NCBI GenBank assembly: GCA_963666565.1
Contig: OY762911.1
Location: 2,944,001-3,008,000, forward strand
Direction: 5' to 3'
DNA: 64,000 nucleotides
Origin: Thermoanaerobaculia bacterium
GTDB lineage: Bacteria > Acidobacteriota > Thermoanaerobaculia > Multivoradales > Multivoraceae
The first letter of the stretch is position 1. Each line of letters opens with the position of its first letter. The notes under the pieces were generated by a model. That model was given only the letters and a program-made list of their open reading frames with translations, searched no databases and had not been told where the DNA came from. This document shows positions 6,607 to 59,413 of this stretch, in pieces. The translations under genes and the position numbers were made by a program.

Positions 6607-9036
6607 TCAGGGCCGCGGGCGGACCGGGGCCAGTTCGCCTCGCCCCTCGACGAGCCGGTAGAGGCTGTCCGGCTGGACGCTGGCGAAGCTCTCGGTCCGG
6701 TCGCTCGCGGGCCAGTAGACCGCGACCCTCTCGACGGCTTCTGGCTGGCCGAGCCCGATCGTCTGGCGCAGCGGGTTGCCGCCGAAACTGCCGCCGCCGT
6801 TGACGCGGCGGTGGATGCTGCGCCGGGCGCCGTCCGGGTCAAGGACGTCGACCCGGATGCGGGCGCCGATCGCCGAGCGGTTGCTCACCGTCCCCATCAG
6901 GCGGAGCGCCAGCCAGCGGTTGCCGAAGCCCGGGTTGCGGAAAAGGGCGTCGCCGAAGCGGTCGCCGGGGAAGGCCCCGCCCATCTGCTCGAACACGTCC
7001 AGGTCGCCGTCGCCGTCGAGATCGGCGAAGGCGACCGCGTGGCCCTTCTGCAGGTGGCCGAAGCCGGCGGCGAGGCTGACGTCGACGAACCGGCGGCCCG
7101 CCAGGTTCCGGTAGAGGACGTTCGGCATGATCGCCTCGTAGTCGGGATAGCCGGTGCCGAGGTAGAAGTCGAGGTAGCCGTCGAAGTCGAGGTCGCCGAA
7201 GTTCGAGCCCATCGGAAGCTGCAGGCGGGTGAGCCCGCTCTTCACGGCAACGTCCTCGAAGCCGCCCTTGCCGTCGCCCCGGTAGAGCCTGGCGAGTTCC
7301 CATGGACCCGGAAAGCCCTGGTAGCTGGCGGCGACGAAGCCGAGGCCGCCGCGGTCGCCGGTGTAGCTGGAGACGAATAGGTCCAGGTTGCCGTCGTTGT
7401 CGAAGTCCCAGAACCAGGCCGGGAAGCTCTGGCGGGGTCCGGCGACGCCGAGCCGGGGCGCTGTGTCCTCGAAGCTGCCGTCGCCGCGGTTGCGGAACAG
7501 GCGGTTGGGGCCGCCGAGCACGGAGAGGTAGAGGTCGGGAAAGCGGTCGTTGTCGTAGTCGCCCCAGACGGCTGCCTTGACGAAGGCGCGGGTGGCGACG
7601 CCGGCTTCCGCCGCGACATCCCGAAAGCGGACGACGCCGTCCTCGCCCTGGCCCTCGTTGCGGAAGAGTTGCGACGGCGCGTCGACCGCCGGGCCGTGCT
7701 CGTTGCCGACGAAGAGGTCGAGGTCGCCGTCGTTGTCGTAGTCGGCCCAGGCGGCGGTCTGCGTGGGGTAGTGGGTCTCGCCGAGGCCGGAGAGGAACGT
7801 GACGTCCCGGAAGACCGGCGGCCCCGGCTCGCCGCCGTCGGCCGACTGGTTCAGCAGAAGCGAGTTCGGGTGGCGGCCGTGCGGGCCGAACCAGGCGCCG
7901 CGCAGCACGAAGAGGTCGAGGTCGCCGTCGTTGTCGGCGTCGCCGTGGACGACGTTCAGGCCGCCGTAGAGCCCATCGAGGCCGGCCGCGGCAGAGAAGT
8001 CGGTGAAGGTGCCTGTGCCGTCGTTAAGGAAGAGCCGGGGCGAGACCGCGGGATCGAAGGTCGTGGTGAAGATGTCGAGGTCGAAGTCGCCGTCGAAGTC
8101 GTCGACGACGGCGCCGCCGGAGAGGTTGAAGCTGTCGATCCCGAGCTCGGGCGCGACGTTGACGAAGCGCGGGAACTCGGCCGCCGAACCGAAGGCCGCG
8201 AGCGGCAGCCGGTGATCCGGTTCGACCGCCGCCGGGTGGTCGCCCAAGGTCATGTGGGCCAGGTTCAGCAGCCACTTCGCCTTGACCTGCTGCACGGAGT
8301 TCGGCGGTACGGCCGCGAGGTACTCGCGGAGGAAGCGCGCCGCCTGCTCGGAGCCCTCACGTTCGCTGTGAACGGCATCGCCGCGGATCGGCAGGATGCA
8401 CGCGTTGGCCCCCCCTGGCGACCCGTGCAGCCCGGCGCAGTTGCGGCTTTCGCCGTAGCGCAGCCAGGCGACGGCGATCCGGAACAGGGTCTCGGTCTCG
8501 TCGCCGAGCGTCGCGGGCGATGCGGACGTGAGTTCGTACGCTTCGCCGAAACGCTCCAGCGCGGCCGGCTCGTCGCCGAGGCGGAGTTCCTCCTCGGCCA
8601 GGTCGACGAGGAGGCGGAACCGCGTGGCGGCGGGGGCATCGGCGGCCGCGGCGAGCGCTTCGCGCGCGGCTTGGGCCGGGGCCTCGCCCAGCCAGGGGTT
8701 GCGGTCGAGGTCTTGGGTGCGGATCGTCTCCAGCGTCTCGACCATCCGGGCGTGGCTCGCGTCGATGGAGGCTGGCCGGACGGGAGGTTCCTGGGCCGCG
8801 GTGGCTGGGGCCAGGAGCAGGGCAGTCAGGAACCACCATGAGCGGAGGCAAGGCCGTGTCGGCGCCGGCCTGGCGGCCGGCCCGGTTTCCTGGCCGCCTT
8901 CGGCGGCAGCGGGTCGGCACCCTGGTGGCGCGTCACCGCGCCACCAGCGTCCCAGTCCGTGCGCCCGTCCTCGGGCGCACGGATGGCAGACCCGCGCACC
9001 CGGCGAAGCCTCGGCAAGTCGGCGGGCAGCCAGCAC
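6607..9036 (-). CDS. CRTAC1/ASPIC-UnbV family FG-GAP repeat protein (start uncertain; repeat element in the N-terminus)
   Basis: Multiple DxDNDGDLDL repeats; C-terminal NRSAIGARIRV...GLG ASPIC/UnbV motif; GTG at 9036 just after the upstream stop. Confidence 0.88.
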   Translation of the reverse strand: MLAARRLAEASPGARVCHPCARGRAHGLGRWWRGDAPPGCRPAAAEGGQETGPAARPAPTRPCLRSWWFLTALLLAPATAAQEPPVRPASIDASHARMVETLETIRTQDLDRNPWLGEAPAQAAREALAAAADAPAATRFRLLVDLAEEELRLGDEPAALERFGEAYELTSASPATLGDETETLFRIAVAWLRYGESRNCAGLHGSPGGANACILPIRGDAVHSEREGSEQAARFLREYLAAVPPNSVQQVKAKWLLNLAHMTLGDHPAAVEPDHRLPLAAFGSAAEFPRFVNVAPELGIDSFNLSGGAVVDDFDGDFDLDIFTTTFDPAVSPRLFLNDGTGTFTDFSAAAGLDGLYGGLNVVHGDADNDGDLDLFVLRGAWFGPHGRHPNSLLLNQSADGGEPGPPVFRDVTFLSGLGETHYPTQTAAWADYDNDGDLDLFVGNEHGPAVDAPSQLFRNEGQGEDGVVRFRDVAAEAGVATRAFVKAAVWGDYDNDRFPDLYLSVLGGPNRLFRNRGDGSFEDTAPRLGVAGPRQSFPAWFWDFDNDGNLDLFVSSYTGDRGGLGFVAASYQGFPGPWELARLYRGDGKGGFEDVAVKSGLTRLQLPMGSNFGDLDFDGYLDFYLGTGYPDYEAIMPNVLYRNLAGRRFVDVSLAAGFGHLQKGHAVAFADLDGDGDLDVFEQMGGAFPGDRFGDALFRNPGFGNRWLALRLMGTVSNRSAIGARIRVDVLDPDGARRSIHRRVNGGGSFGGNPLRQTIGLGQPEAVERVAVYWPASDRTESFASVQPDSLYRLVEGRGELAPVRPRP
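8864..9003. repeat. REP/REPIN-like element, variant with a 69-bp loop insert, in frame in a CDS N-terminus
   Basis: Reverse complement reads CCGGGTGCGCGGGTC-TGCC[insert]TGCC-GACCCGC-TGCCGCCGAAGGCGGCC...GCCGGCCGCCAGGCCGGC. Confidence 0.85.
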
Positions 9037-9041
9037 GGCGG

Positions 9042-10889: not shown

Positions 10890-10960
10890 GTCTTGGGGTG
10901 GGACACGATAGCGCGGGGCGGTTGGGTGACGAAGTCGCCGCCGCTTCGCGCTGCGTTCAT

Positions 10961-11072
10961 GGCCGCCGGCGGCGACAGCCGGCGCGAACCTGAGTGGCGC
11001 CTGGGGGGCCACCCACGAACCAGTCCGTGCGCTCGCCAGTCGGTCGCGCGGATGGCGCTCCGGCGGGCCCGG
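10961..11072. repeat. Degenerate REP-like element (insert variant), intergenic
   Basis: GGCCGCCGGCGGCGACAGCCGGCG...CCAGTCCGTGCGCTCG...GCGCGGATGGCGCTCCGGCGGGCCCGG resembles the 8864 and 27164 copies. Confidence 0.65.
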
Positions 11073-11116
11073 TGCGGAGCGTTCACGGCCCGCATGCTCG
11101 TCGGTCTCAGGCGAAG

Positions 11117-12997
11117 CTAACGGGCGCCGCCGGGAGCGCGGAGGGGTTGCCTCGCCCGGTAGAGGCGAAGGCGGTCGAGCCGTTGCGGCGAGTTGCCGCC
11201 GGCGGTCTCGCGCTCGCGGTCGAGGGCCCGCTGTTGCCAGGAGACGGCTTCGTCGAAGCGGCCGGCCTCGGCCATCGCCATCGCGAGCGTTTCGAGGTGG
11301 TCGACGGCCGGTTGCTCGTCGACGACGGAGCGGGCGAGTTCCACGGCGCGTTCGCCGTCGCGCGCCGCTGCGTCGGAGCTGGTGGCGAGCAGCCGGGCGA
11401 GCAGGTGGCGGACGGCGAGGTCGCCTGGGAAACGTTCGAGCGCCGTCTCCAGCGTCTCGCGGGCGGCGGCGAACCGGCCGCTCTGGAACCGCGTCAGGCC
11501 GAGGTTGAAGTGGACGCGGAGGTCGTCCGGGGTCAGCGCGGCCAGGGCGGCGAGGTGCTCGGCGGCCCGGCCCGGCTCGCCGGCCTCCAGCAGCAGGGCG
11601 GCCAGCAGCCGGTGCGCCTCGATGGCGCCCGGGTCGAGCCGGACGATCTCCTCGAGTTCGGCGCGGGCGCCGGTGGCGTTGCCGGCGTCGGCCCGGGCCT
11701 GCGCCCGCATCAGCCGCCACTGGAGGTTCTCCGGGTCGAGGTCGGCGGCCCGCTCCAGGTGCAGCGCTCCCTCGGCGGTGCGGCCGGTGCGGCCGAGCAG
11801 GAGGGCGAGGTTGAAGTGCGCCGCGCCGTGGGCGGGATTCGCTGCGATCGCGTGCCGAAGGTGCTCCTCGGCGGCCGCCCGGTCGCCGCTCTCGATCAGG
11901 GAGCGGGCCAGATTGAAGTGGAGTTCCGGGTCGGCGTCGGCGTCGGCGTCGGCGTCGCCGTCGCCCTCGGCCAGGAGTTCCCGGTACAGGGCGACCGCCT
12001 CCTCGTTCCGGCCGGAGCGGGCGGCGCGCACCGCGCGGTCGAACCGGGCCTCGGTCTTCACGCCGTAGATCTGGAGCCGGTCCCGGAGAGGATCGGCGAT
12101 GGCGATCGGCACCTGCCGGTTGCGCGCGAGTTCGGCGCGGGCACGGGCGGCGTCTCCGCTCGCCCGCAGAGCCATGCCGAGGTGGTGGTGGACGACGCTG
12201 CCTTCCGGCTGCGAGGCGAGCACCGCCTCGAAGGCGGCGATCGCTTCCGCGGTGCGGCCCCGGTCCATCGCGACCCGGCCGAGGCCGAACCGCGCCGCGG
12301 CGCTCTCGGGCCGTGCGTCGAGCGCCCGCGCGTAGGCGGCTTCGGCGGCGTCCAGATCGCCTGCGTCGAGGTGAAGGTCGCCGGCGCGGATCAGGGTCGC
12401 CGTGTCGTCCGGGCGCAGCGCGAGGGCTGCGCGGGCTGCGAGCCGGGCGCGCTCCAGGTTGCCGGTGGCGTCGTGGAGCAGCAGCTCGTAGTAGGTCCAC
12501 TGGAAGTCGTTCGGCGCCAGCAGCCGGAGCTGCGCCAGGCAGACGGCGGCGGCGCCGTGAAGTTCGTGGTGGAGGTACTGCAGGCAGAGGTGGCCGAAGG
12601 AGTTGGCGGCGATCTGGGCTTCTTCGTCGGTGGCCGCGGCCTCCAGGGCGGCGCCGACGGCGGCGCGGCCGGCGGCGATCTGCTCGCGGGTCTCGGCGTC
12701 GAGGTGGTCGAGCGATGGGGCCGGCACGGCGTCGAGGGAGAGGAGGGCGCGGACCTTGCGGGCGTCGTCGGTGGGCTGCGGCGCCTGGGCGGCGGCCTGC
12801 GCGGCGCCGGCGAAGATGAGGCACAGGAAAAGGCCGCCCACTGGGTGCGCGGGTCCTCTGACCCGCTGCCGCCGAAGGCGGCCAGAAGAACGACGGCCGA
12901 AGGCCGACCTCTTTCTCCGGCCTGCACCGCTCTGCGGCGCCGGGCCGGAGGGCGGGTCAGAAGACCCGCGCACCCAGAGGAAGCGTAGTCGGGTCAA
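11117..12997 (-). CDS. Tetratricopeptide repeat protein
   Basis: Serial TPR helices (ARFGLGRVAMDRG, LHFNLARSL, AHFNLALLL); TTG start overlaps the upstream TGA (TTGA). Confidence 0.88.
   Translation of the reverse strand: MTRLRFLWVRGSSDPPSGPAPQSGAGRRKRSAFGRRSSGRLRRQRVRGPAHPVGGLFLCLIFAGAAQAAAQAPQPTDDARKVRALLSLDAVPAPSLDHLDAETREQIAAGRAAVGAALEAAATDEEAQIAANSFGHLCLQYLHHELHGAAAVCLAQLRLLAPNDFQWTYYELLLHDATGNLERARLAARAALALRPDDTATLIRAGDLHLDAGDLDAAEAAYARALDARPESAAARFGLGRVAMDRGRTAEAIAAFEAVLASQPEGSVVHHHLGMALRASGDAARARAELARNRQVPIAIADPLRDRLQIYGVKTEARFDRAVRAARSGRNEEAVALYRELLAEGDGDADADADADPELHFNLARSLIESGDRAAAEEHLRHAIAANPAHGAAHFNLALLLGRTGRTAEGALHLERAADLDPENLQWRLMRAQARADAGNATGARAELEEIVRLDPGAIEAHRLLAALLLEAGEPGRAAEHLAALAALTPDDLRVHFNLGLTRFQSGRFAAARETLETALERFPGDLAVRHLLARLLATSSDAAARDGERAVELARSVVDEQPAVDHLETLAMAMAEAGRFDEAVSWQQRALDRERETAGGNSPQRLDRLRLYRARQPLRAPGGAR
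12841..12977. repeat. Complete REPIN-like element in frame in the TPR protein signal region
   Basis: CTGGGTGCGCGGGTCCTCTGACCCGC ... GCGGGTCAGAAGACCCGCGCACCCAG. Confidence 0.92.
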
Positions 12998-14767: not shown

Positions 14768-14908
14768 CTGGGTGCGCGGGTCTTCTGACCCGCTGCCGCC
14801 GAAGGCGGCCAACAGCATCGTCGCCGGCCTTGGGCCGGCGGCCCGACTGTCCGGGCTGCGCCGCTCCGCGGCGCCGCCCGATGCGGGTCGGAAGACCCGC
14901 GCACCCGG
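14768..14908. repeat. Complete REPIN-like element, intergenic
   Basis: GGGTGCGCGGGTCTTCTGACCCGC...GCGGGTCGGAAGACCCGCGCACCC, with a short duplicated left end. Confidence 0.92.
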
Positions 14909-14918: not shown

Positions 14919-17474
14919 CTAGCGGACCGGCTCCGTGCCGACCACGTTGTCGCGCTCCAGCGCATCGAGTTCCGATTCGCTCAGGCCGAGCAGCCGGCTC
15001 AGCACCTCGCGGTTGTGCTCGCCAAGCGTCGGCGCGGGCCACTCGACGGCGTAGGGCCGGTTCTCGCCGTCATCGCTCACGGGCCGGAATGGCGCGGACG
15101 GGTTGGGATGGTCGCCGACATGGGCGCGCTCGCGCCACTGCCAGTAGCCGCGGGCATCGAGATGCGGGTCGTAGAGCACGTCGAGGGTGTTCCGCAGCAC
15201 GGCGGCCGGCACGCCCGCGCCGGCGAGGCGTCGCTCCAGGGCCAGGCCGTCGTGGAGACTGGTGCGGGCCGCCAGCGCCCGGTCGAGTTCGTCCTCGCGC
15301 CGCTTCCGGGCCTCGGCGCTGGCGAAGCGGCCGTCCTCCGCGTCCATTCCGAGCGCCGCGCACAGGCCGCGCCACTGGTCCCCGGTCTCGACGGTGACGG
15401 TAATCCAGGGCTCGGCGCCGATGCACGGATAGACGCCCCAGGGCGCGAAGACCGGGTGGCGTCCGCCGGAGCGCTCGGGCGGGGCGCCGCGGACCGCCTG
15501 CTCGATCAGGCCGTGGGCCGCGAGCGGGAACATGGACTGGACGTGGGAGAGGTCGACGTACTGGCCCTCGCCGGTCCGCTTGAGGTGGCGGAGGGCGGTC
15601 AGCAGCGCCGCGGCCCCGTTGATGCCGGCGATCGGGTCGCCCAGGGCGACGTGCTGCATCGTCGGCGGGTCGCTGGCGCGGCCGTTCAGGTGGGGCAGCC
15701 CCGAAGCCTGCTCGACGGTCGAGCCGTAGGCGCGGTGGTTCAGCCACGGGCCGCTCGCGCCGAACGGCGGCATGGAGACCATGACGAGCTCCTGGTTCGC
15801 CCGGCGCAGGCAGTCGTAGTCGAGACCCAGCTTCGGCAGGACGCTGGCGGTGTAGTTCTCGATCACCGCGTCCGACTTCGCGACGAGCCGCAGCAGCAGG
15901 TCCTTGCCGCGCCGGCTGGTCAGGTCGAGCGTGATCCCCAGCTTGTTGCGCCCGGTCGTGTTGAAGGCGGTCGATTGCTCGTAGAGCTTCTGCGCGATCG
16001 ACTCCGGCGTCGACTCCCAGCCGCGCCACCAGTCGAAGTACTGGCACGACTCGACCTTGATCACCTCGGCGCCCAGGTCGGCGAGCTGGCGGGTGGCGAG
16101 CGGGCCGGCCCAGCCCATCGTCAGGTCGACGATGCGGATGTCCTGGAGGTGGGCCGGCCGGCGGCTGGCCGGTCGGCGCGCCGGCCCGACATCCGACCGT
16201 CCGCTGACGGGAGCTCGGACTGTGACGCTGGTTGCGCGCGGACGCGCCGCCAGGGTTCTGGCCGGCATCCGGTCCGCCGGCTGCTCGGGGTCGACGGCCG
16301 GTTGCGCGCTGGACCCCTGGCCTTCGGCTGCAGTCGCTACGCGGTCGTGTTCGCCCAGGCGCGGCGCCCTCCCGCCAATTGCCGCGGGAGTGCGGTGCAG
16401 GCGAAACGGCGTGCCTGCGGCGGGAAAGCTCCCCTGGTCGGGATGTTCGGCTTCGACCCAGGCGCCGCGGTCCCGGAACTGCTCGAGGTCGAACAGCTCG
16501 GCCGGCGTCGGCGCCAGCGCAAGCGGGATGCGCGCGGCCTGCCCGGCTTCGACCCACTCCAGGGCGGTCCGTTCGAGCAGGCGCGGGCGGATCGCCGCGT
16601 CGATTCGGTCGGCGTCCTCCAGCCGGTTGATCGACACCTGGTATCGGGGTTCGGTCCCGAGTTCGGGAAGGCCCAGGAGGGCGCAGAAGCTCCGCCATTG
16701 CGAGGGCGTTACCGTCGTCACGCCGAGCCAGCCGTCGCGGCACGGATACACGCCAACCGGGAAGGTCGGCCAGAAGCGGTTGATGCCGAGGCGGGGACGG
16801 ATCTCGCCGGTCGCGAGTGTGCCCGGAGGGCCCGGTTCGGTGATGCACATCGCGGCCTCGAAGATGGAGACGTCGAGGTGAAGCGGAGCGTCGAGCCGGC
16901 CGGTCCCGCGCGCCAGCAGATGGCCCGCGGCGGCGACGTATGCGAGTGTGCCGGCGACGATCTGCGGCGCGTGGCCCGTCGCCAGAATCGGCGGGCCTTC
17001 GGCGGTTCCGATCGCCCGGGCTGCGCCGGTGTGGGTGCTGATGACCGGGTCCGTGGAGGCGCGGCCGGCATAGGGCCCCGAGGCGCCGAACCAGGAGATG
17101 GAGAGCCGCGTCTGGCGGTCGAGCAGCCTCCTCTCAGCGGTGGGGTCGGCGTCGAGGATGAGATCGGCGGCACCGAGGAGGGCGCGGGCCTCCGCGTGCT
17201 CCGGGAGGGCCGCAACGCTTCGCTTGCCGAGGGAGAGCCACGTCGCGAGCGCGCTGGCCTCGGGCGGGGACGACCGCGGATGGAAGGGATGCAGGCGGCG
17301 GATCGGGTGGCCTTCGCCCGGCGGTTCGAGGTTCGTCACCGTCGCGCCGAGGTCGCGGAAGAGCTTGCCGCAGTAGGCGGTCGCGACCGTGCCGGCAAGG
17401 TCGACGGCGTGGATGCCGTGCAGGGCACCGCGTCGGGGTTCTCGTTTCGCGGACTTCTCGGTGTCGTCTTGCAT
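14919..17474 (-). CDS. Double-domain family III CoA transferase (CaiB/BaiF)
   Basis: Two CoA_transf_3 units: ATAYCGKLFRDLGA...APRLGEH and DLTMGWAGPLATRQLADLGAEVIKVE...APTLGEHN. Confidence 0.9.
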   Translation of the reverse strand: MQDDTEKSAKREPRRGALHGIHAVDLAGTVATAYCGKLFRDLGATVTNLEPPGEGHPIRRLHPFHPRSSPPEASALATWLSLGKRSVAALPEHAEARALLGAADLILDADPTAERRLLDRQTRLSISWFGASGPYAGRASTDPVISTHTGAARAIGTAEGPPILATGHAPQIVAGTLAYVAAAGHLLARGTGRLDAPLHLDVSIFEAAMCITEPGPPGTLATGEIRPRLGINRFWPTFPVGVYPCRDGWLGVTTVTPSQWRSFCALLGLPELGTEPRYQVSINRLEDADRIDAAIRPRLLERTALEWVEAGQAARIPLALAPTPAELFDLEQFRDRGAWVEAEHPDQGSFPAAGTPFRLHRTPAAIGGRAPRLGEHDRVATAAEGQGSSAQPAVDPEQPADRMPARTLAARPRATSVTVRAPVSGRSDVGPARRPASRRPAHLQDIRIVDLTMGWAGPLATRQLADLGAEVIKVESCQYFDWWRGWESTPESIAQKLYEQSTAFNTTGRNKLGITLDLTSRRGKDLLLRLVAKSDAVIENYTASVLPKLGLDYDCLRRANQELVMVSMPPFGASGPWLNHRAYGSTVEQASGLPHLNGRASDPPTMQHVALGDPIAGINGAAALLTALRHLKRTGEGQYVDLSHVQSMFPLAAHGLIEQAVRGAPPERSGGRHPVFAPWGVYPCIGAEPWITVTVETGDQWRGLCAALGMDAEDGRFASAEARKRREDELDRALAARTSLHDGLALERRLAGAGVPAAVLRNTLDVLYDPHLDARGYWQWRERAHVGDHPNPSAPFRPVSDDGENRPYAVEWPAPTLGEHNREVLSRLLGLSESELDALERDNVVGTEPVR
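16175..16270. repeat. Degenerate REP-like element in frame in the CoA transferase interdomain linker
   Basis: ATCCGACCGTCCGCTGACGGGAGCTCGGACTG...GCCGGCATCC matches the insert-variant copies; encodes [12 protein letters not shown]. Confidence 0.65.
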
Positions 17475-17523: not shown

Positions 17524-17692
17524 CCGGGTGCGCGGGTCCTCTGACCCGCATGCCGCCGAAGGCGGCCATTAGCGTCGCCGGCCTTTGGGCGGCGTCCTTC
17601 TTGTCCGGGCTGCGCCGCTACGCGGCTTCGCCCGAAGAGCGGGTCGGAAGACCCGCGCACCCAGCGTCCGGCTGTCAGACCCACGCACCCGG
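17524..17692. repeat. Complete REPIN-like element plus a partial extra right end, between divergent genes
   Basis: Terminal inverted REPs at 17526 and 17662; extra GTCAGACCCACGCACCCGG. Confidence 0.9.
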
Positions 17693-18975: not shown

Positions 18976-19130
18976 TTCGCTGGGTGCGCGGGTCTTCCGA
19001 CCCGCCCACCGGGCGAAGCCGCGGAGCGGCGCAGCCCGGAGAAAAAGGACGCCGGCCAGAGGCCGGCGACGATACTGGCCGCCGCCTCCGGCGGCAGCGG
19101 GTCAGAAGACCCGCGCACCCAGCGAATCAG
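18972..19130. repeat. Complete REPIN-like element whose inverted repeat extends over both convergent stop codons
   Basis: CTGATTCGCTGGGTGCGCGGGTCTTCCGACCCGC ... GCGGGTCAGAAGACCCGCGCACCCAGCGAATCAG (34 bp, 1 mismatch). Confidence 0.92.
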
Positions 19131-20039: not shown

Positions 20040-20135
20040 CGGCTCTGTAGCCGCCTGCGGCCGGCGGCCCTGTCTTCCGGGCTGCGTCGCTCCGCGACAC
20101 AGCCCGTGGGCGGGTCGGAAGACCCGCGCACCCAG
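20040..20135. repeat. Partial REPIN-like element (right half), intergenic
   Basis: Ends GCGGGTCGGAAGACCCGCGCACCCAG; internal hairpin GTCGC-TCC-GCGAC. Confidence 0.85.
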
Positions 20136-23381: not shown

Positions 23382-23531
23382 CGTCGTCGGCGCGTCGTCG
23401 TGGAGCGGCTGCGTGGCGTTGTCGGTGGCACCCGCCTGTCCGGGGGCCGGTAGAGAGGGTCCCGGACGGCTGGACTTCGTCGGGCTTCCCGGCGCCGGAT
23501 GCCTGCGTTGCGGGTTGGATGAGGTCGCACA

Positions 23532-23601
23532 CTGGGTGCGCGGGTCCTCTGACCCGCTGCCGCCGGAGGCGGCCAGAAAACGCGCCGGCCGTCAGGCCGG
23601 C
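23532..23601. repeat. Half REPIN-like element that overlaps and supplies the stop codon of the DUF255 gene
   Basis: CTGGGTGCGCGGGTCCTCTGACCCGCTGCCGCCGGAGGCGGCC...GCCGGCCGTCAGGCCGGC; TCA at 23592. Confidence 0.85.
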
Positions 23602-26237: not shown

Positions 26238-26359
26238 GGCTTGCGAGGATACCGCCCCGAAGACGCGGCGCAGCCCGGACAGCAAGGCCGCCGGTCAGGA
26301 GCCGGCGACGATTGGACGCCGCCTTCGGCGGCAGCGGGTCAGAAGACCCGCGCACCCAA
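26167..26359. repeat. Two adjacent REP-like pieces: an insert module in the DUF255 N-terminus and a half REPIN upstream
   Basis: TCCGTCCGCCCGCTGACGGGCGCACGGACTG (26167) and GCCGCCTTCGGCGGCAGCGGGTCAGAAGACCCGCGCACCC (ending 26357). Confidence 0.82.
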
Positions 26360-31800: not shown

Positions 31801-31810
31801 GCGGCGCCCA

Positions 31811-31881
31811 CCGGGTGCGCCGGCGTCCTCGCCGGCTGCCGCCGCAGGCGGCCAGGGAGACGCGCCGGCCGCCAGGCCGGC
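31811..31881. repeat. Half REPIN-like element with a compensated REP stem, intergenic
   Basis: GGGTGC-GCCGGCG-TCCT-CGCCGGC-TGCCGCCGCAGGCGGCC...GCCGGCCGCCAGGCCGGC. Confidence 0.85.
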
Positions 31882-31905
31882 TCTACGCTGGCGGCTACTT
31901 CCATG

Positions 31906-43669: not shown

Positions 43670-43807
43670 TTCCGTTCTCCTTGAAGGTCGCTCCGCAGTC
43701 GTGCGGCCACGTATCGCTTCGTCGCCGATCATCGCGTTGTCGGAGGTTCTCGCGCCCCGAACCGGCTGCGGAGCTGCTTGCGCGGTTGCGATTTCGCACT
43801 CGCCGCG

Positions 43808-46564: not shown

Positions 46565-46674
46565 GGTTCCCCTTCTTTCCGGTCGACCAGTGACGGCGAG
46601 GTGGCAGCCCCACTCCGAATCGGAGCGTTGGTGACGACACGAAACCGCCGCGGAAACAACGCTGTTCAGGCACC

Positions 46675-46703
46675 CTTATAGGGAGATCGAGACGCGCTGT
46701 CAA
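46675..46703 (-). promoter_or_regulatory. Near-consensus sigma70 promoter for the FN3/PKD array
   Basis: TTGACA-N17-TATAAG on the minus strand, about 110 bp upstream of paralog 3. Confidence 0.65.
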
Positions 46704-47154: not shown

Positions 47155-49311
47155 ATGAAGGAAACGAAGTTCGAGTCGTTCGCGTCGCTGCGCGATTCCC
47201 TCGCGGCGATGTCGATCAAGACTGTCGAGACCGAGGTGTTGCGCATCGCGGCATCGGTCGAGAGCGGGGAGGGCGGAGCGGCTGCGGTCCGTTCGGCGGT
47301 CGTCGAGTGGCTGGAGGATCGGGCCGGCGAACGGCTTCCCGAACGGGCCGCGGAGCGGACGTTCTCCTGGGAAGGCGACCGCCTTCGCTGCGAAGCGGTG
47401 CGGCTGGAGGACGGCGAAGACGACCTCTGGGCGGTGCGCGTCGAGGACGGAGGCGAGAACGGAGCTTCGGGCTCGCTGGCGAACGAGATCGGCGTCGCCG
47501 GGAGCGGCGACGCGCCGGTGCGGCTCTTCGCGCGGGTTCTGTCCAGCGTCGGTCACGCCTTCGGCGAGGCGCCGGACCTGATCGCCCGGCTCGCCGAGCG
47601 GTACGAGCTGAAGCAGTTCGGCGTCCCGCTTGGCGCGTCGCCGCTTCTGATCAAGACGGAGCGCGACGCGGAGGCGCTCGTCAAGTGGCTCACCCATGCC
47701 TCGCGGCGCCTGCCGGTCATCACGCTCTCCGTGCCGGACGACGCCGAGGATCCCTACCGGCCGCTGCTCGATCCGGTGGAACTCGCGCGCGACGCGGCGG
47801 GGATCGCCCAGGTGGCCGTGCTGCCCTCCAGGTTCACCTGGTTCCTGACCCAGCGGTTCTCGAAGAAGCTGTCCGTCTACCGGGGCGCGATCCGCATCTA
47901 CCAGCCGGGGTTCGACGGCGTGAACGCCGGCGACTCGCACTGGGCGGTCATGGCCGACCGCCTGAGCGCGCCCGCGGGCGCCCAGCGGCATCGCGCCGAC
48001 ATCCTGCGCCGCGTGGGGGAGCGGAGCGTCGCCGACCAGGAGGCGCCGCCGGCGTTCGCGGACTTGCGCGAGCGCGCCGGCGGGAAGCCGCCGCCCGTCG
48101 AGTCCGCGGGTGCGGCTCCGGCAGTCGCCGAACGTGGCGGCGTGGCCGCACCGACTGCCGAGCCCGATGGCGCCGCCGGGGAGGAGGTCGCAAGCCCTTC
48201 GGAGGTCCGCGCGAAGAAGTCGCCCGGCGACGAAGCAGCTTCGCCCGACCTTGCGGCGACCGTCGGAGGCCGAAACGCGCCAGCGGACGCAGCGGATCCC
48301 GCCGCGCCGCCACGCAGGGAACGGGGCCGCACACCGGGTGCGCCGGGGTGCCGTTCGTCCGCCCGATCGACGGGCGCACGGACTGGTTCGCGGGTGGCGT
48401 CCGAGACGCCACCCGGGTTCTCGCCGGCTGCCGCCGAAGGCGGCCAGAAGGACGCGCCGGCCGTCAGGCCGGCCCCGCGTCCGACGCCCGGTTCCACGCA
48501 AGGTCCGCCGGCAAGCGAACCGCGGACGACCGCCGAGAGGACCCCGGCCGCGCCGCCCGCCACGCCGGCAGCGTTGCCCGAACGGGCGCCCGGCTTGTTC
48601 GCCCGCCTGGGTTCGCTCGCCCGGATGCTGAGTTCGGGCGGCTACGCGACCGGGGAGGCCAGGATCCGGGCTCCCGCCGAGCGCGAGAAGGAACGGATGG
48701 AGCGAGAGCTTCAGTCCAGCCGGCGCCAGTTCGACGAACTGACCACGAAGCTGCGATCGACGCGCGAGGAAGCCGAGTACTTCCTCACCGAGAACCAGGA
48801 GGCGGAAGCTCTGGCGGGCAAGCGGCAGCGGCAGATCGACGAGGCGAACGCCCGCATCGCGCAGCTCGAAGAGCAACTCCGCTCCCTCGGCCACACGCCG
48901 CTGCCGGGCGGATGGGAGGACTTCGTGGACTGGTGCGAGCGCGAGCTGGGCGGCTCGCTCATCCTGTCTCCCAAGGCGCGCCGCGAGATCAAGGGCGCCC
49001 ACTTCGCCGATGCCCCGCTCGCGGCGCGCTGCCTGCTGTGGCTTGCCGGGGAGTACCGGGACGGCCGCCTGAACGGCGCGGGAGCGTCCCTGCGGATCGA
49101 AGAGTCCGGGATCCGCAACGAGCCGTGCGGCGGAGACAAGGTGCCGCTCAAGTGGCGGGGCGAGAACCGCCACGCGGACTGGCACCTGAAGAACGGAGGC
49201 AATACGCGGGACCCGGCGCGCTGCCTGCGCATCTACTACTTCTGGGACCAGGAGACGCGGCAGGTTGTCGTCGCGTCCATGCCCGCGCACGTGCGGAGCG
49301 CCATCACCTGA
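47155..49311 (+). CDS. Hypothetical protein: globular N-domain, disordered linker, coiled coil, and a possible RelE-like C-terminal domain
   Basis: Coherent ORF after a GGAG RBS; coiled coil EREKERMERELQ...LEEQLR; C-terminal WHLKNGGNTRDPARCLRIYYFWD...VVVASMPAH. Confidence 0.8.
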   Translation: MKETKFESFASLRDSLAAMSIKTVETEVLRIAASVESGEGGAAAVRSAVVEWLEDRAGERLPERAAERTFSWEGDRLRCEAVRLEDGEDDLWAVRVEDGGENGASGSLANEIGVAGSGDAPVRLFARVLSSVGHAFGEAPDLIARLAERYELKQFGVPLGASPLLIKTERDAEALVKWLTHASRRLPVITLSVPDDAEDPYRPLLDPVELARDAAGIAQVAVLPSRFTWFLTQRFSKKLSVYRGAIRIYQPGFDGVNAGDSHWAVMADRLSAPAGAQRHRADILRRVGERSVADQEAPPAFADLRERAGGKPPPVESAGAAPAVAERGGVAAPTAEPDGAAGEEVASPSEVRAKKSPGDEAASPDLAATVGGRNAPADAADPAAPPRRERGRTPGAPGCRSSARSTGARTGSRVASETPPGFSPAAAEGGQKDAPAVRPAPRPTPGSTQGPPASEPRTTAERTPAAPPATPAALPERAPGLFARLGSLARMLSSGGYATGEARIRAPAEREKERMERELQSSRRQFDELTTKLRSTREEAEYFLTENQEAEALAGKRQRQIDEANARIAQLEEQLRSLGHTPLPGGWEDFVDWCERELGGSLILSPKARREIKGAHFADAPLAARCLLWLAGEYRDGRLNGAGASLRIEESGIRNEPCGGDKVPLKWRGENRHADWHLKNGGNTRDPARCLRIYYFWDQETRQVVVASMPAHVRSAIT
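48334..48473. repeat. REP-like element (insert variant) in frame in the linker of 47155-49311
   Basis: GGGTGCGCCGG...CGGGTGGCGTC-CGA-GACGCCACCCG...TGCCGCCGAAGGCGGCC...GCCGGCCGTCAGGCCGGC. Confidence 0.88.
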
Positions 49312-49320
49312 ACCGGCGCT

Positions 49321-49410
49321 GTCGCCGGCGTGCGGCCGGCGTCCCTGCCGTCCGGGGCGCGCCGCTCTGCGGCGCCGCCCGCGGGCGGGTCGGAAGACCC
49401 GCGCACCCGG
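49321..49410. repeat. Half REPIN-like element between convergent genes
   Basis: GCGCCGC-TCT-GCGGCGC...GCGGGTCGGAAGACCCGCGCACCCGG. Confidence 0.85.
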
Positions 49411-49433
49411 CGGAAGGCCCGCGAACTCTCGTC

Positions 49434-55798: not shown

Positions 55799-58700
55799 TT
55801 GAAGCGCTGCGCGGCAACGTTCGCTTCGCTCGCGGCAGGCGCGATGCCGCTCGCCGCCTGCGGCCAGCCGGCGCTCGATGGCGTACCGCCGGGCTTCGAG
55901 CTCCACCCGGCGTTCCGGCTCGAAATCGCGGCGGCCGAGCCGGTAACGGTCGACCCGATCGACCTCGCCTTCGACGAGCGCGGGCGCGTCTTCGTTCTCG
56001 AACTGCCGGGCTATCCCGACATGGAGCGCCCGGCGCGGATCGCCGAACTCACGGACGGCGACGGCGACGGACGCTGGGACGAGCGCCGCCTGTTCGCGGA
56101 CGATCTCGGCATGGCGGATTCGATCCTGCCATGGCGGCGGGGGCTGCTGACGGCGGCGCCGCCGCACCTCCTCTACCTCGAGGACACAAACGGCGACGGC
56201 AGGGCGGACCGGCGGGACGTGCTGCTGAGCGGCTTCGCGGAGGGCAATCCGCAGCACAACGTGAACGCGCTCCGCTACGGCCTGGACAACTGGGTCCACG
56301 GCGTCAACGGGGGCAACGGCGCGCGCGTCTTCTGGCCGGACGCGCCCGAGGAGGCCGCGGATATCGGGCAGGACGACTTCCGGGTGGACCTCGGCGGTGG
56401 CCGCTTCGAGCGGACCGGCCGCGGCGCCGGCGGGTTCGGCATGACCTTCGGCCCCTGGGGGCGGGCCTTCGGCACGCACAACCTGGACCATCTGAGCCAG
56501 GTCGTCGTTCCGCGCCGCTACCTCGATGGGCTGCCGCCGGCCTGGCAGGACGGCCGGCAGCGTCTGGCGGCGCCCCCGGACGGTGGCCCGGCCGAGCTGT
56601 TTCCGATCGGCGTGCGGCAGACGCGGCCGAACCACCCGGAGCAGTCGAGCCGCTTCTCGGCGGCCAGCGCGGTGACGGCGTACGCCGGCGGCGCCTTCGG
56701 CAGCGCGGGCCTGGGCGGAGACGGAGCCATCCTGGGCGGCGGCGGAACCGGCACTGTTGAGCGGGGGATCGACGTGTTCGTGGCCGATCCGTCCGCGAAC
56801 GTGGTCCATCGCGCGGTCGTCGACACCTCGGGCGCCGCGGCCGAAGCGGCGCGGGGCCGGCCGGGAGTCGAGTTCCTGGCCTCGACCGATCCGCTGTTCC
56901 GGCCGGTCAACCTGACGGTGGGGCCGGACGGCGCGCTCTACGTCCTGGACATGCACCGCGGCGTCGTCGAGCACCCCGAGTGGATCCCCGACCCGATGGA
57001 GGCGGAACTCGACCTCTACGAGGGCGACGACCGGGGCCGCATCTACCGTGTGGTGCCGGCCGCCGGCCTGCCGGCCGGGCATGCCGCCTTCGGCGGCTAC
57101 GACCGCTCGCGCCCCGGCGAACTCCTCGACGCGCTGTCCCACCCGAACCGGTGGCGGCGACTGACCGCGCAGCGCCTCCTCGTCGAGGAGTTCGCGACGG
57201 ACCCGCCGGAGCCCCTCGTCCGGGACCTCCGGCAGATGCTGGAGAACGCGCGGCCGCTGGGGAGGCTTCACGCCCTGTGGACCCTGAGCGGCCTCGGGGC
57301 GCTCGATCCCGAGAGCCTTGGCGCGGCCCTGGCCGACCCGGCGCCGGAGCTCCGGCGCAACGCGGTGCTGGCGTTCGAGGAGACGTCAGGCATCCTGACG
57401 GAGCGGCGCCGGCCGTCCGGCCGGCGCGACTTCCGGCCGCCCGCGGCGGCAGCCCGCGAGGGCGCCGGCGCACCCGGCGTCGGGCCGCGATCGGCGCTGG
57501 CATCCGATGTCGTGGCGCTGATCGGCGATGCGGACTCGGGCGTGAGGCTCCAGGCGATGCTGACCGCCGGACTCCTGCTGCGGTCGGGAATCGACGGCGC
57601 CGAGGCGATTCGCGACGCGGCGATGTCGGCGGTCGTGGCGGGATTGACGGCTTCGGCCGGCGAGTCGCCTGCCGCGCCGCGGTCGGCGGACGAGACGCCG
57701 GCGTCCCCGGACCCGACGGACGAGACGCTCGCGTCCCCGGAGTCGGCGAACGAGGAGCGTTGGCTGCGGCTCGCAGCGGTTTCGGTCCTCGCCGGCGATC
57801 CGGTCGCTTCCCTGGAACTCCTGCTGACAGCGGGCGGCGGCGCGGACGACGTGGTGGAACGGATCGCCGCCCTGCTGCCCGCCGAACGGCTGGGCGAGAC
57901 GATCGCCAGCGACGTGGTGCTGCGGACCCTGGCCGGGTCCGGCGCCCAGGCTTCCGGGACAGGCCGCGCGCTGCTGGCCGGCCTTACGGCGGCGGCCTCC
58001 GGCGGGGAGAACCGGCGGCCCGCGGATTCGACTCTGGCCGTACCGTTGGCGCGCCTGCGGCGTTCAACCGACGACGGCCTCGCGGCCGCCGCGTGGCGCC
58101 TGAGCGCCGCGCTCGGAGCGGGAGCGTCGGCGGAAGAGATCCGGCTTCTCGACTGTGCCGGAATCCGCGCCGGGGATCCGGCCGGTCCGGTTGAGGAGCG
58201 GCTTCAGGCGCTGGCGCTGTTCGCCCTGCGCCGCCAGTGGCCGGCGGATTCGGCGGATGTGGCGGTGCGCTGCCCGCGGACCGGCGGCGGCCCGGCCGAT
58301 ACCGCCTTCACCGGCGGGTCGTGGCTGGAGCGGATGGGGTCGCTGCTCGAAGCGGGGCATCCGCAAGAGGTTCAGCGGGCCGCGATGGCGGAATTCGCGG
58401 CGGCGGACCAGACCGCCGTGACGGCGCACGTGATCGACCGCTGGCCGTACATGGGACCGGCCGCCCGGCGCGACGCGGGCAGCTACCTCATCCGCGGCCG
58501 CGGCCGGCACGGGGCGCTCCTCGACGCGATCGAGAGCGGACGCATCCGGGTCGGGGAGATGAACTTCGACCTGGAGCGGCGCCGCTTCCTGCTGCGTTCG
58601 CCCGAGCCGGAGATCCGCCGGCGGGCGCAAGCCCTGTTCGACGATGCCGGAGTCGTCACCCGGGCCGGCGCGATCGAGGCGATGCGGCCCGCGCTCGAAC

Positions 58701-59413
58701 TCGACGGCGACGTCGCGCGGGGCGAAGCGTTGTTCCTCGAACTCTGCGCCCGCTGCCACCGGAGCGGCGGCGCCGGCGGCGGGCCGGGCCCGGACCTGTC
58801 CGGCATCGGACGCAAGAGCGGCGAGACGCTCCTGCACGACATCCTGGACCCGAACGCGGCGGTCGACGCCGCCTACGTGAACTACATCGTGGAGACCGTG
58901 GACGGCGAGGTCCACACCGGTCTGCTGGCGGAGAGCGCCGGCGGCGCGGTCGCCCTGCGCGCGGCCGAGGACCTGCTGATCGAGGTGCCCGCCGAACGCG
59001 TCCGCGAGATCCGCAGCGACGGCCTGTCGATGATGCCGGAGGAACTCGAGGCGGGGCTCGAACCCGCCGACATGGCGGACCTGCTCGCGTTCCTGAGCAG
59101 ATCGCATCGAACCGCCCGTCCGCCGGGTGCGCGGGTCTTCCGACCCGCTGCCGCCGAAGGCGGCGTCCAACAACGTCGCCGGCAAAGCCGGCGGCCATTC
59201 ATCGGGGCCGCGCCGCTTCGCGGCGCCGCCCTGAGCGGGTCGGAAGACCCGCGCACCCGGCCGGTCGGAAGACCCGCGCAGCCGGCCGGTCGGAAGACCC
59301 GCGCACCCGGCAGATCCGCCAACCCGGCGAACTATCGGCGTCGTTGGACGGCTTCGATCTCCAGGAAACGCTCCTTCAGCCGGACGGCCTGCTCGAGATC
59401 GAGCACCAGGTAG
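55799..59413 (+). CDS. PVC-type membrane-bound dehydrogenase / heme-binding CxxCH protein; C-terminus extended by a repeat element
   Basis: Lipobox LAAC; propeller region DTNGDGRAD; FRPVNLTVGPDGALY; CARCH; SMMPEELE. Confidence 0.88.
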   Translation: MKRCAATFASLAAGAMPLAACGQPALDGVPPGFELHPAFRLEIAAAEPVTVDPIDLAFDERGRVFVLELPGYPDMERPARIAELTDGDGDGRWDERRLFADDLGMADSILPWRRGLLTAAPPHLLYLEDTNGDGRADRRDVLLSGFAEGNPQHNVNALRYGLDNWVHGVNGGNGARVFWPDAPEEAADIGQDDFRVDLGGGRFERTGRGAGGFGMTFGPWGRAFGTHNLDHLSQVVVPRRYLDGLPPAWQDGRQRLAAPPDGGPAELFPIGVRQTRPNHPEQSSRFSAASAVTAYAGGAFGSAGLGGDGAILGGGGTGTVERGIDVFVADPSANVVHRAVVDTSGAAAEAARGRPGVEFLASTDPLFRPVNLTVGPDGALYVLDMHRGVVEHPEWIPDPMEAELDLYEGDDRGRIYRVVPAAGLPAGHAAFGGYDRSRPGELLDALSHPNRWRRLTAQRLLVEEFATDPPEPLVRDLRQMLENARPLGRLHALWTLSGLGALDPESLGAALADPAPELRRNAVLAFEETSGILTERRRPSGRRDFRPPAAAAREGAGAPGVGPRSALASDVVALIGDADSGVRLQAMLTAGLLLRSGIDGAEAIRDAAMSAVVAGLTASAGESPAAPRSADETPASPDPTDETLASPESANEERWLRLAAVSVLAGDPVASLELLLTAGGGADDVVERIAALLPAERLGETIASDVVLRTLAGSGAQASGTGRALLAGLTAAASGGENRRPADSTLAVPLARLRRSTDDGLAAAAWRLSAALGAGASAEEIRLLDCAGIRAGDPAGPVEERLQALALFALRRQWPADSADVAVRCPRTGGGPADTAFTGGSWLERMGSLLEAGHPQEVQRAAMAEFAAADQTAVTAHVIDRWPYMGPAARRDAGSYLIRGRGRHGALLDAIESGRIRVGEMNFDLERRRFLLRSPEPEIRRRAQALFDDAGVVTRAGAIEAMRPALELDGDVARGEALFLELCARCHRSGGAGGGPGPDLSGIGRKSGETLLHDILDPNAAVDAAYVNYIVETVDGEVHTGLLAESAGGAVALRAAEDLLIEVPAERVREIRSDGLSMMPEELEAGLEPADMADLLAFLSRSHRTARPPGARVFRPAAAEGGVQQRRRQSRRPFIGAAPLRGAALSGSEDPRTRPVGRPAQPAGRKTRAPGRSANPANYRRRWTASISRKRSFSRTACSRSSTR
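57408..57477. repeat. Half REPIN-like element in frame in the middle of the CxxCH protein
   Basis: Close match to the reverse complement of the 31811-31881 copy; encodes RRPSGRRDFRPPAAAAREGAGAPG. Confidence 0.8.
59123..59310. repeat. Complete REPIN-like element with a triplicated right end
   Basis: Element 59125-59258, followed by two more 25-bp CCGGTCGGAAGACCCGCGCA(C/G)CCGG units. Confidence 0.92.

What the first reader, a model, noticed from the sequence alone, without database searches (positions are those of the whole stretch)
8864..59310. Dense modular REP/REPIN-like palindrome family that colonises coding sequences in frame
Seen: about 17 copies in 64 kb of an element built on the 24-mer GGGTGCGCGGGTCTTCCGACCCGC. 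Full copies are two inverted 24-mers about 135 bp apart enclosing three more hairpins. At least 8 copies lie in frame within genes (8864, 12841, 16175, 26167, 27164, 48334, 57408, 59123). They are read on different strands and frames ([30 protein letters not shown]), so the unit is DNA-level rather than a peptide motif. Known: REP doublets (REPINs) are spread by RAYT/TnpA-REP HUH transposases and are mostly extragenic; in-frame palindromic insertions are best known from Rickettsia palindromic elements. Inference: this is a possibly undescribed REPIN family remodelling proteins in this lineage. No transposase is present in the window.
Basis: partly seen in the sequence, partly recalled or inferred. 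Interest (0 to 1): 0.85.

Follow-up and report, generated by a model that had tools for sequence, protein, structure and literature searches.

The report
REPIN palindromes, some inside genes
A small palindromic mobile DNA element, copied by a single domesticated transposase encoded elsewhere in the genome, litters this GC-rich acidobacterial chromosome; most copies lie between genes, a few sit in frame inside real proteins, and both behaviours are already documented in other bacteria.

Summary
The repeat family is real. The window holds 17 repeat intervals and the genome 739, or 1.26% of its bases. The unit is a 26-nt REP made of a conserved head and a 7-bp hairpin. It often occurs as ~137-bp inverted doublets (REPINs) that fold into a long stem enclosing three hairpins. 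The genome holds one RAYT (Y1 HUH transposase) gene, bracketed by these REPs. Close RAYT homologues in other genomes carry the same REP; distant ones carry different palindromes.

The family is mainly extragenic: 573 of 739 intervals are fully intergenic and favour convergent gene junctions.

Of the eight copies claimed to be in frame:
- Four are inside real ORFs: two linkers, one 75-nt insert, and one tail created by stop loss.
- Three lie just upstream of start codons.
- One is ambiguous.

Elsewhere in the genome, DnaE and HisD carry in-frame inserts absent from 25 of 25 congeners.

Intragenic REPs, including one in dnaE, were described by Di Nocera et al. 2013 (PMC3733652). This scan had already reported this family, and an in-frame array, on other DNA of the same genome (e1-1535376, e1-4727402). 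Verdict: a new member of a known kind.

The parts
8860..9003 (.). Family-B element plus shared hairpin modules at the 5' end of the FG-GAP/ASPIC gene (called 6607-8745, minus strand). It is ambiguous whether part of it is translated.
   Evidence: 287 genome hits, 21 of them at least 80% of the query length; fold z -7.4. No ATG/GTG/TTG lies between the repeat and a conserved signal-peptide-like segment. Part of it is shared with G013 and G014.
10956..11072 (.). Repeat interval between two minus-strand genes, at the right edge of a 2.2-kb segment (8918-11116) that G013 lacks.
   Evidence: gene calls.
12843..12975 (.). Full REPIN (133 bp), intergenic. It ends 1 nt from the GTG start (12841) of the TPR gene and 18 nt from the stop of gene 12994-14730.
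   Evidence: Empty site in G013 and G014; G032 has REP ends at this junction.
14770..14906 (.). Full REPIN (137 bp), intergenic, between the start of gene 12994-14730 and the stop (14919) of the CoA-transferase gene.
   Evidence: Empty in G014; G013 has only a half element.
16150..16340 (-). Decayed family-B copy read in frame inside the hypervariable linker between the two CoA_transf_3 domains of one ORF (14919-17474).
   Evidence: Two Pfam domains in one frame. 37 genome hits to 16180-16270. The linker differs among 19 orthologues while its flanks are near-invariant. Another clade's linker is a different dispersed repeat.
17526..17662 (.). Full REPIN (137 bp) in a divergent spacer.
   Evidence: Absent at the orthologous site in G013, G014, G009 and G032.
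18982..19120 (.). Full REPIN (139 bp) between convergent genes 17716-18975 (+) and 19127-19993 (-).
   Evidence: Empty in G013, G014 and G009, where the two genes abut or overlap.
20053..20133 (.). Half element with one REP (20110-20133), intergenic.
23526..23604 (.). Single REP (23534-23557) plus a hairpin module in a convergent spacer.
26150..26240 (.). Family-B hairpins immediately upstream of the start (26144) of the DUF255/thioredoxin-domain gene. Not in the CDS.
   Evidence: A signal-peptide-like N-terminus begins right after the repeat. Absent in G013, G014, G009 and G032.
26265..26357 (.). Half element ending in a REP (26334-26357) in the same divergent spacer.
27150..27256 (.). Family-B element between the stop (27119) of a plus-strand gene and the GTG start (27293) of a lipoprotein-like gene. 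Not in the CDS.
   Evidence: Absent in 5 of 5 syntenic genomes.
31796..31900 (.). Variant REP plus modules between two minus-strand genes.
   Evidence: 243 hits. Absent in 4 of 5 syntenic genomes.
48334..48510 (+). Family-B element plus shared modules read in frame in the low-complexity linker of a single 721-aa protein (47146-49311).
   Evidence: Coding signal in the same frame on both sides, with none across 48060-48540. Homologues have both conserved ends in one protein with a variable linker. The repeat-coded stretch is present in P0002 (96% identity) and absent in P0003.
49321..49408 (.). Half element with a REP (49385-49408) between convergent genes, at the right edge of an 11.9-kb segment that five sister genomes lack.
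57399..57480 (+). Half element (variant REP plus two hairpin modules, minus orientation) inserted in frame: net +75 nt, 25 codons, in the DUF7133 / PVC-type haem-binding protein gene.
   Evidence: 116 genome hits. The block is missing from 20 of 20 orthologue rows that cover the place. DNA alignment. Contigs of 4 runs bridge it with 0 differences.
59125..59308 (+). REPIN (59125-59258) plus two tandem REPs inserted at a convergent gene junction. The upstream gene has lost its stop and its frame runs on for about 104 codons to 59413.
   Evidence: The TIGR02603 domain ends at residue 1100 of the ORF. 11 of 11 orthologues that reach the end stop 2-3 codons after ...AFL. Contigs confirm the stop-less junction.

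Best explanation
This is a REP/REPIN population maintained by one RAYT, a domesticated Y1 HUH tyrosine transposase of the TnpAREP kind. The gene lies about 2.2 Mb from the window, at G000:C1 about 749.06-749.86 kb.

The unit is a 26-nt REP: a conserved head (C-Y-GGGTGC) followed by a 7-bp stem and 4-nt loop. Two inverted REPs about 137 bp apart form a REPIN. As single-stranded DNA it folds into a 25-bp stem closing three smaller hairpins. Those inner hairpins also occur on their own and in a second, rarer family with the same head.

Inferred mechanism: the RAYT binds the folded REP on single-stranded DNA, cuts beside it, and copies or recombines doublets, halves and tandem arrays in trans. This step is not shown here.

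Shown here: copies differ between sister species at orthologous sites. They sit mostly in short spacers, above all between convergent genes. Selection has left only a small minority inside genes. Those survivors are in frame and lie in linkers, loops, or C-terminal tails formed when a stop codon was displaced. The GC-rich element seldom carries a stop and encodes R/A/G/P-rich peptide, which probably makes such copies tolerable.
For: - REP abundance: 862 copies at up to 3 mismatches.
- Pairing of neighbouring copies: 121 convergent against 8 divergent, with a spacing peak at 113-115 nt, plus 208 tandem pairs mostly 25-28 nt apart.
- The logo shows an invariant head and stem. Fold z = -10.2.
- One PF01797 match in the genome. 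It scores 76.3 bits, E 2e-21, on NF047646 'REP-associated tyrosine transposase'. It aligns to E. coli TnpAREP (4ER8) with E 2e-5, with the HUH motif and the YI..NPV..G motif in register.
- The gene is bracketed by inverted arrays of REP heads, with four direct REPs and an inverted one at its 3' end.
- RAYT homologues at 66-75% identity in named MAGs have the same 24-mer doublets on both sides. Homologues at 45-60% identity have other palindromes.
- The element matches in 18 of 18 congeneric genomes and in 1 of 12 genomes from the other families of the order that were sampled.
- The three genomes with the fewest REPIN matches (G002, G010, G012) have no RAYT match.
- 573 of 739 intervals are fully intergenic. 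Repeats occupy 33% of convergent, 18% of divergent and 11% of tandem spacers.
- 12 of the 13 window intervals that could be tested lack the element in at least three of five syntenic sister genomes.
- In-frame inserts with empty orthologous sites: 57408 in 20 of 20 rows; DnaE, 180 nt, in 25 of 25; HisD in 25 of 25.
- Ton-Hoang et al. (PMC3333891, passages read) show that TnpAREP acts on single-stranded REP/BIME DNA and makes linker variants and tandem copies.
Against: - The NF047646 score (76.3) is just under its cut-off of 80, and only profile positions 44-146 match.
- The head is GGGTGC, not the GTAG or CGTC tags that define the two REP superfamilies of PMC3733652.
- G005, G006 and G018 have 31-76 REPIN matches but no RAYT match. 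All three are draft assemblies of 20-200 contigs.
- No RAYT specific to family B was found.
- Nothing here shows catalysis, transcription or translation. No RNA run was listed.
- Gene calls are my own crude codon-bias calls and missed at least one gene, so the intergenic and intragenic fractions are approximate.
Confidence: 0.9

Rival explanations
1. The elements are classical MITEs: deletion derivatives of an insertion sequence with 24-nt terminal inverted repeats, moved by a DDE transposase that makes target-site duplications.
For: The full elements have perfect 24-nt inverted ends, are about 137 bp long, and are present or absent between species.
Against: - The ends occur far more often singly and in head-to-tail arrays 25-28 nt apart (208 tandem pairs), which MITEs do not do.
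- No consistent target duplication is seen at four filled/empty pairs.
- The only gene bracketed by these ends is a Y1 HUH RAYT.
- The REP sequence changes with the RAYT lineage.
Confidence: 0.03
2. All the 'in-frame' copies are reading artefacts of a GC-rich genome. None is part of a made protein, because true gene boundaries exclude them or the host genes are pseudogenes.
For: 64% of frames in random 138-nt stretches are stop-free. Three of the eight named copies do fall outside the CDS once starts are placed. No RNA or protein data exist here.
Against: - For 57408, DnaE and HisD the insert lies between conserved coding blocks of one frame. Its net length is a multiple of three for 57408 (75 nt) and DnaE (180 nt); the HisD length was not resolved. 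Orthologues have empty sites.
- The genus searches with the DnaE and HisD segments returned one orthologous locus in G000.
- For the CoA-transferase and the 721-aa protein, the single-ORF form is kept in 19 and 5 relatives respectively.
Confidence: 0.07
3. The repeats are host regulatory hairpins (terminators or mRNA stabilisers at gene ends) that spread by recombination and are kept for function. The RAYT is a bystander.
For: Enrichment at convergent junctions and 3' ends and strong folds. PMC3733652 argues that many REPs act as RNA elements.
Against: - Species-specific presence at otherwise conserved junctions, where relatives have genes that abut without any hairpin.
- REP sequence tracks the RAYT lineage.
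- Copies inside DnaE and HisD cannot be terminators.
- This reading concerns the elements' effect, not their origin, so it can coexist with the main one.
Confidence: 0.15

Closest known systems
E. coli REP/BIME elements with TnpAREP (the 'REPtron'), Ton-Hoang et al. 2012, PMC3333891 (passages read); structure 4ER8
   Same: - A short imperfect palindrome with a conserved 5' head.
- Inverted pairs with variable linkers, and tandem arrays.
- One Y1 HUH gene bordered by the repeats.
- The protein aligns to 4ER8 with the HUH and C-terminal motifs.
   Different: - The head is GGGTGC rather than GTAG.
- The pair encloses three extra hairpins (about 137 bp).
- The host is an uncultured acidobacterial lineage with 70% GC.
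- Only about 25-30% protein identity over 107 residues.
REPIN-RAYT systems of Pseudomonas fluorescens (Bertels and Rainey 2011, PMC3116915; search listing and abstract only)
   Same: - Doublets as the replicating unit.
- A single-copy RAYT.
- Genus-wide vertical presence with lineage-specific REPIN sites.
   Different: RAYT group membership was not tested. A visible minority of copies sits inside genes.
Intragenic GTAG- and CGTC-tagged REPs (Di Nocera, De Gregorio, Rocco 2013, PMC3733652; passages read)
   Same: - In-frame REP singles, dimers and clusters coding 20-80 residues.
- Many N-terminal cases are really extragenic.
- Inserts lie in linkers, and in replication genes including dnaE.
   Different: A different tag and lineage. 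Here empty orthologous sites in up to 25 congeners date the inserts as species-specific.
Rickettsia palindromic elements (RPE), as summarised in PMC3733652
   Same: Palindromic repeats tolerated in frame within functional proteins.
   Different: Here a dedicated RAYT is present and about four fifths of copies are intergenic. No sequence relation was tested.

Membership tests
REP/REPIN-RAYT system (REPtron) | Short imperfect palindrome with a conserved 5' head, present in hundreds of copies | tested here: met
   862 copies at up to 3 mismatches. The logo has head C-Y-GGGTGC, a 7-bp stem and a 4-nt loop, with positions 0-23 at 88-100% except position 16.
REP/REPIN-RAYT system (REPtron) | Inverted doublets (REPIN/BIME) able to fold into a long hairpin | tested here: met
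   121 convergent against 8 divergent neighbour pairs, with peak spacing 113-115 nt. MFE -72.9 kcal/mol, z -10.2.
REP/REPIN-RAYT system (REPtron) | A Y1 HUH transposase gene of the RAYT clade, at one or few copies, flanked by the REPs | tested here: met
   One PF01797 match. NF047646 at 76.3 bits, cut-off 80. 4ER8 at E 2e-5. Five REPs at the 3' end and inverted head arrays on both sides.
REP/REPIN-RAYT system (REPtron) | REP sequence specific to the RAYT lineage | tested here: met
   The same 24-mer doublets flank homologues at 66-75% identity (L052-L055, L062, L130). Other palindromes flank more distant homologues.
REP/REPIN-RAYT system (REPtron) | Predominantly extragenic, near 3' ends of genes | tested here: met
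   573 of 739 intervals are fully intergenic. Convergent spacers are occupied 33%, tandem 11%, divergent 18%. These rest on my own crude gene calls.
REP/REPIN-RAYT system (REPtron) | RAYT binds and cleaves single-stranded REP DNA | not testable with these tools
   Needs purified protein and oligonucleotides, as in PMC3333891.
GTAG- or CGTC-tagged REP superfamilies (PMC3733652) | GTAG or CGTC tetranucleotide at one end of the palindrome | tested here: not met
   The head is GGGTGC with C-Y before it. Neither tag is at the foot of the stem.
Rickettsia palindromic elements | Palindromic repeat inserted in frame in genes whose orthologues lack it | tested here: met
   57408, DnaE and HisD, but this holds for a small minority of copies only.
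Rickettsia palindromic elements | Sequence or lineage relation to RPE families | not tested
   No RPE sequence was compared.
MITE | Target-site duplication and a parent IS with matching termini | tested here: inconclusive
   No regular duplication at four filled/empty pairs. No parent IS was looked for beyond the Y1 family.
CRISPR array | Direct repeats separated by unique spacers of similar length | tested here: not met
   Tandem REPs follow each other at 25-28 nt, leaving no room for spacers.

The most novel reading that the evidence does not exclude
In this genus the RAYT-driven palindromes may be a regular source of new protein sequence, not just rare tolerated accidents. Supporting observations:
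- Species-specific in-frame inserts sit in essential enzymes (DnaE, HisD, a peptidase M16, probably GlmM).
- The same permissive linker of a fused CoA-transferase has been refilled by different dispersed repeats in different species.
- Stop codons at abutting convergent genes are displaced, so REP DNA becomes C-terminal tails, even on the RAYT itself.
If the rate is well above that of classical REPIN hosts and the inserts are translated, this would be an RPE-like process with its transposase still in place.
Probability: 0.3. Interest if true: 0.5.

Novelty: new member of a known kind. Interest (0 to 1): 0.32.

Why it matters
It adds a well-resolved REPIN-RAYT system from an uncultured acidobacterial lineage. 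The REP has an unusual head and a four-hairpin doublet. Because many congeneric genomes are available, individual insertions can be dated.

It also gives clean filled-versus-empty examples of palindromes inserted in frame into housekeeping genes. These could be used to test how such inserts are tolerated.

For annotation, it is a warning. In 70% GC genomes, ORFs run through REPs, so starts and ends next to them are easily miscalled.

Tried and rejected
- Rfam at gathering thresholds found nothing in the window.
- A genus search with the 721-aa protein failed on the server. The question was answered with the search for homologous proteins instead.
- RNA evidence: no RNA holder was listed for 56900-59500. 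The four DNA runs, all from one study, were used only to check the assembly.
- A covariation count on 78 full elements was discarded. The alignment mixed the two orientations of the near-palindromic element, so the apparent compensatory changes are artefacts.
- Target-site duplication: projected 'overlaps' at empty sites mostly reflect unaligned flank bases. No regular duplication emerged.
- A peptide-motif reading was rejected because the same DNA is read in several frames and on both strands.
- My strict 'embedded' screen missed the linker cases 16175 and 48334, because their flanks score as non-coding. Its 16 of 738 is therefore a floor. The 93 of 739 intervals lying inside crude gene calls is a ceiling that includes start miscalls and possible two-gene fusions such as L161 and L162.
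- RAYT group typing, structure prediction and complex prediction were not run.

Full report
**What is there.** The window is part of a single-contig genome of 4.79 Mb with 70% GC. Genome-wide it occurs 862 times, 406 of them exact. A logo of all 862 copies shows that the conserved unit is slightly longer. C and then T/C precede an invariant GGGTGC head, followed by a 7-bp stem, a 4-nt loop and the return stem. One C/T polymorphism lies in the loop-proximal stem.

Neighbouring copies are strongly ordered: 121 convergent pairs against 8 divergent. The spacing peaks at 113-115 nt, giving elements of 137-139 bp, with a minor class at 162-163 nt. There are also 208 head-to-tail pairs, mostly 25-28 nt apart. 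A full doublet folds as single-stranded DNA into a 25-bp outer stem closing three hairpins: -72.9 kcal/mol, shuffles -40.9 +/- 3.1, z -10.2.

The inner hairpins also occur alone. They also occur in a second, rarer family (about 45-55 copies) that has the same GGGTGCGC head but two other hairpins. BLAST with nine window copies, merged, gives 739 intervals covering 1.26% of the genome, 17 of them in the window. Rfam has no match.

**The transposase.** The genome has one match to Pfam Y1_Tnp. The ORF scores 34.4 bits on PF01797 and 76.3 bits on NCBIfam NF047646 'REP-associated tyrosine transposase', just under that model's cut-off of 80. It aligns to E. coli TnpAREP (4ER8) at E 2e-5, with the HUH histidines and the YI..NPV..G motif in register.

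Arrays of REP heads bracket the gene in inverted orientation. Four direct REPs and an inverted one overlap its 3' end, and its own frame runs on through those four REPs.

A scan of named genomes found 85 relatives. Those at 66-75% identity are in MAGs labelled Acidobacteriota, Thermoanaerobaculia or Candidatus Multivorans, and they carry the same 24-mer doublets directly on both sides of the gene. Those at 45-60% identity, many in Verrucomicrobiota, are flanked by other palindromes.

The element matches in 18 of 18 congeneric genomes and in 1 of 12 genomes from the other families of the order that were sampled. A RAYT match is found in 15 of 25 congeners. The three genomes with the fewest REPIN matches (G002, G010, G012) have none. 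Three REPIN-rich draft genomes (G005, G006, G018) also show none. Ton-Hoang et al. report that in E. coli, loss of tnpAREP leaves REP numbers little changed (PMC3333891).

**Where the copies sit.** I called genes with a codon-bias model trained on the genome's long high-GC3 ORFs. It is crude and missed at least one gene in the window. By these calls, 573 of 739 intervals are fully intergenic, 56 overlap a gene end, and 93 lie at least 90% inside a call. Only 13.8% of repeat bases are in gene calls, which cover 88.8% of the genome. Repeats occupy 173 of 531 convergent spacers (33%), 98 of 531 divergent (18%) and 292 of 2559 tandem (11%). Density is highest in the 200-kb bin that holds the RAYT, with 85 intervals against about 30 elsewhere.

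Against 80-kb syntenic stretches of five sister genomes, 13 of the 17 window intervals could be tested. For 12 of them the element is missing in at least three genomes. Often the neighbouring genes simply abut or overlap there. The copies are therefore younger than the species splits.

**The eight 'in-frame' copies.**

(a) 57408. A half element (variant REP plus two hairpins) adds a net 75 nt in frame to a DUF7133 / PVC-type haem-binding protein. All 20 orthologue rows that cover the place lack it.

(b) 59123. In relatives this gene ends 2-3 codons after ...AFL, and its stop overlaps or abuts the stop of the convergent neighbour. In G000 a REPIN plus two REPs lies between the genes. The neighbour keeps its stop, but this gene has none until 59413, so about 104 codons of REP DNA and antisense neighbour are appended. 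Contigs from four runs of one study bridge both places with no differences. They may come from the sample the genome was assembled from.

(c) 16175. The ORF holds two CoA_transf_3 domains. The fusion is kept in 19 congeners, with near-invariant flanks and a hypervariable linker of roughly 25 to 110 residues. The G000 linker matches 37 family-B copies. The linker of another clade is a different repeat, dispersed in those genomes with 19, 7, 7 and 5 matches.

(d) 48334. The 721-aa protein is one gene. Five full-length homologues share both ends and differ in a low-complexity linker. The repeat-coded stretch is present in a 96% identical protein and absent from a 69% identical one.

(e) 12841, 26167 and 27164 lie 1 to about 36 nt upstream of start codons that are followed by signal or lipoprotein peptides. 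Only the spurious 5' extension of the ORF covers them.

(f) 8864 is unresolved. No canonical start lies between the repeat and a conserved signal-like segment, and part of the repeat is shared with G013 and G014.

So four of eight hold, three do not, and one cannot be told. Open frames alone mean little here: 64% of frames in random 138-nt stretches, and 77% (359 of 468) in full elements, are stop-free.

**Elsewhere in the genome.** A strict screen required coding signal in the same frame on both sides and no stop. It flags 16 of 738 intervals. In 71 more, an upstream ORF runs into the repeat. I scanned fifteen host proteins against Pfam.
- DnaE carries a 180-nt family-B insert with three 33-nt tandem units between the finger and HhH domains. 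It is missing from 25 of 25 congeners.
- HisD has about 69 extra residues, missing from 25 of 25.
- A peptidase M16 has a 138-bp REPIN inside its C-terminal domain. G001 shares it. 22 of 24 congeners with a match lack most of it, though G014 keeps a remnant.
- By domain spacing, a phosphoglucosamine-mutase-like protein, a polyprenyl synthase, a hydantoinase and an MFS loop look similar. These were not checked against orthologues.
- Two long ORFs (L161, L162) look like neighbouring genes joined through REPs.

**Comparison with what is known.** The anatomy matches REPtrons and REPIN-RAYT systems on every feature I could test. The exception is the head, which is neither GTAG nor CGTC (PMC3733652). 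Intragenic REPs are described in PMC3733652 (passages). That paper covers singles, dimers and clusters coding 20-82 residues, a warning that N-terminal cases are often misannotation, placement in flexible linkers, and examples in dnaE. PMC3333891 shows single-strand cleavage needing little more than a CT, and recombination that creates linker variants and tandem copies. This fits the modular mosaics seen here. That fit is an inference.

Two literature searches found nothing on REPs in this lineage: 'REPIN, RAYT, coding, in-frame' and 'Candidatus Multivorans, Thermoanaerobaculia'. Supplementary tables of PMC3733652 were not opened.

Earlier notes of this scan on the same genome reached the same reading. 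One covers REPs elsewhere (e1-1535376) and one an in-frame REP array in a BNR protein (e1-4727402). I saw the latter interval independently.

**Verdict.** This is a real, dense REP/REPIN family with its RAYT. It is predominantly extragenic, with a genuine but minor and already documented habit of surviving in frame in linkers, loops and tails.

Noticed in passing
window 37575-49433: An 11.9-kb segment absent from all five syntenic sister genomes; in G013 the flanks are 20 bp apart. It holds three large paralogous genes (38944-46555, with 300-nt internal repeats) and the 721-aa linker protein. A REP half-element sits at its right edge.
   Followed up: partly
window 8918-11116: A 2.2-kb segment with one 615-aa ORF (no Pfam match on the long ORF) that G013 lacks. 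Repeat intervals bound it on both sides, so REPs may mark recombination or integration points.
   Followed up: no
window 14919-17474 (-): A fusion of two CoA-transferase family III domains in one ORF, conserved in 19 congeners.
   Followed up: partly
L001 1787-1932 (G000:C1 about 749.7 kb): The RAYT's own reading frame continues through four direct REPs (WVRGSSDP-type repeats) for about 48 codons. Homologues mostly stop matching near residue 243.
   Followed up: partly
G000:C1 600-800 kb: Repeat density peaks in the 200-kb bin that contains the RAYT gene: 85 intervals against roughly 30 per bin elsewhere.
   Followed up: no
G000:C1:2261586-2261715 region (DnaE): The 180-nt insert in DnaE ends in three exact-looking tandem copies of a 33-nt unit (11 codons each).
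   Followed up: partly
G000:C1:752819-755230 and 755227-757410: Long ORFs in which unrelated domains are joined through REP-containing stretches without a stop: GFO/IDH/MocA plus aldo-keto reductase, and radical SAM/SPASM plus an unknown C-terminal half. These may be neighbouring genes fused by stop loss.
   Followed up: no
window 24312-24416: Four or five tandem 21-nt units inside the DUF255/thioredoxin-domain gene, coding an Ala/Pro/Gly-rich stretch. The length varies among sister genomes: the alignment breaks at 24314-24430 in G009.
   Followed up: no
window 26400-27119 (+): A conserved plus-strand gene of about 240 codons that my crude gene caller missed, seen by frame scores and 85-88% identity to sister genomes.
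   Followed up: partly
REP position 17 of the 24-mer, genome-wide: A C/T polymorphism (66% C, 34% T). The T form creates a TGA in one of the six frames of the REP.
   Followed up: no
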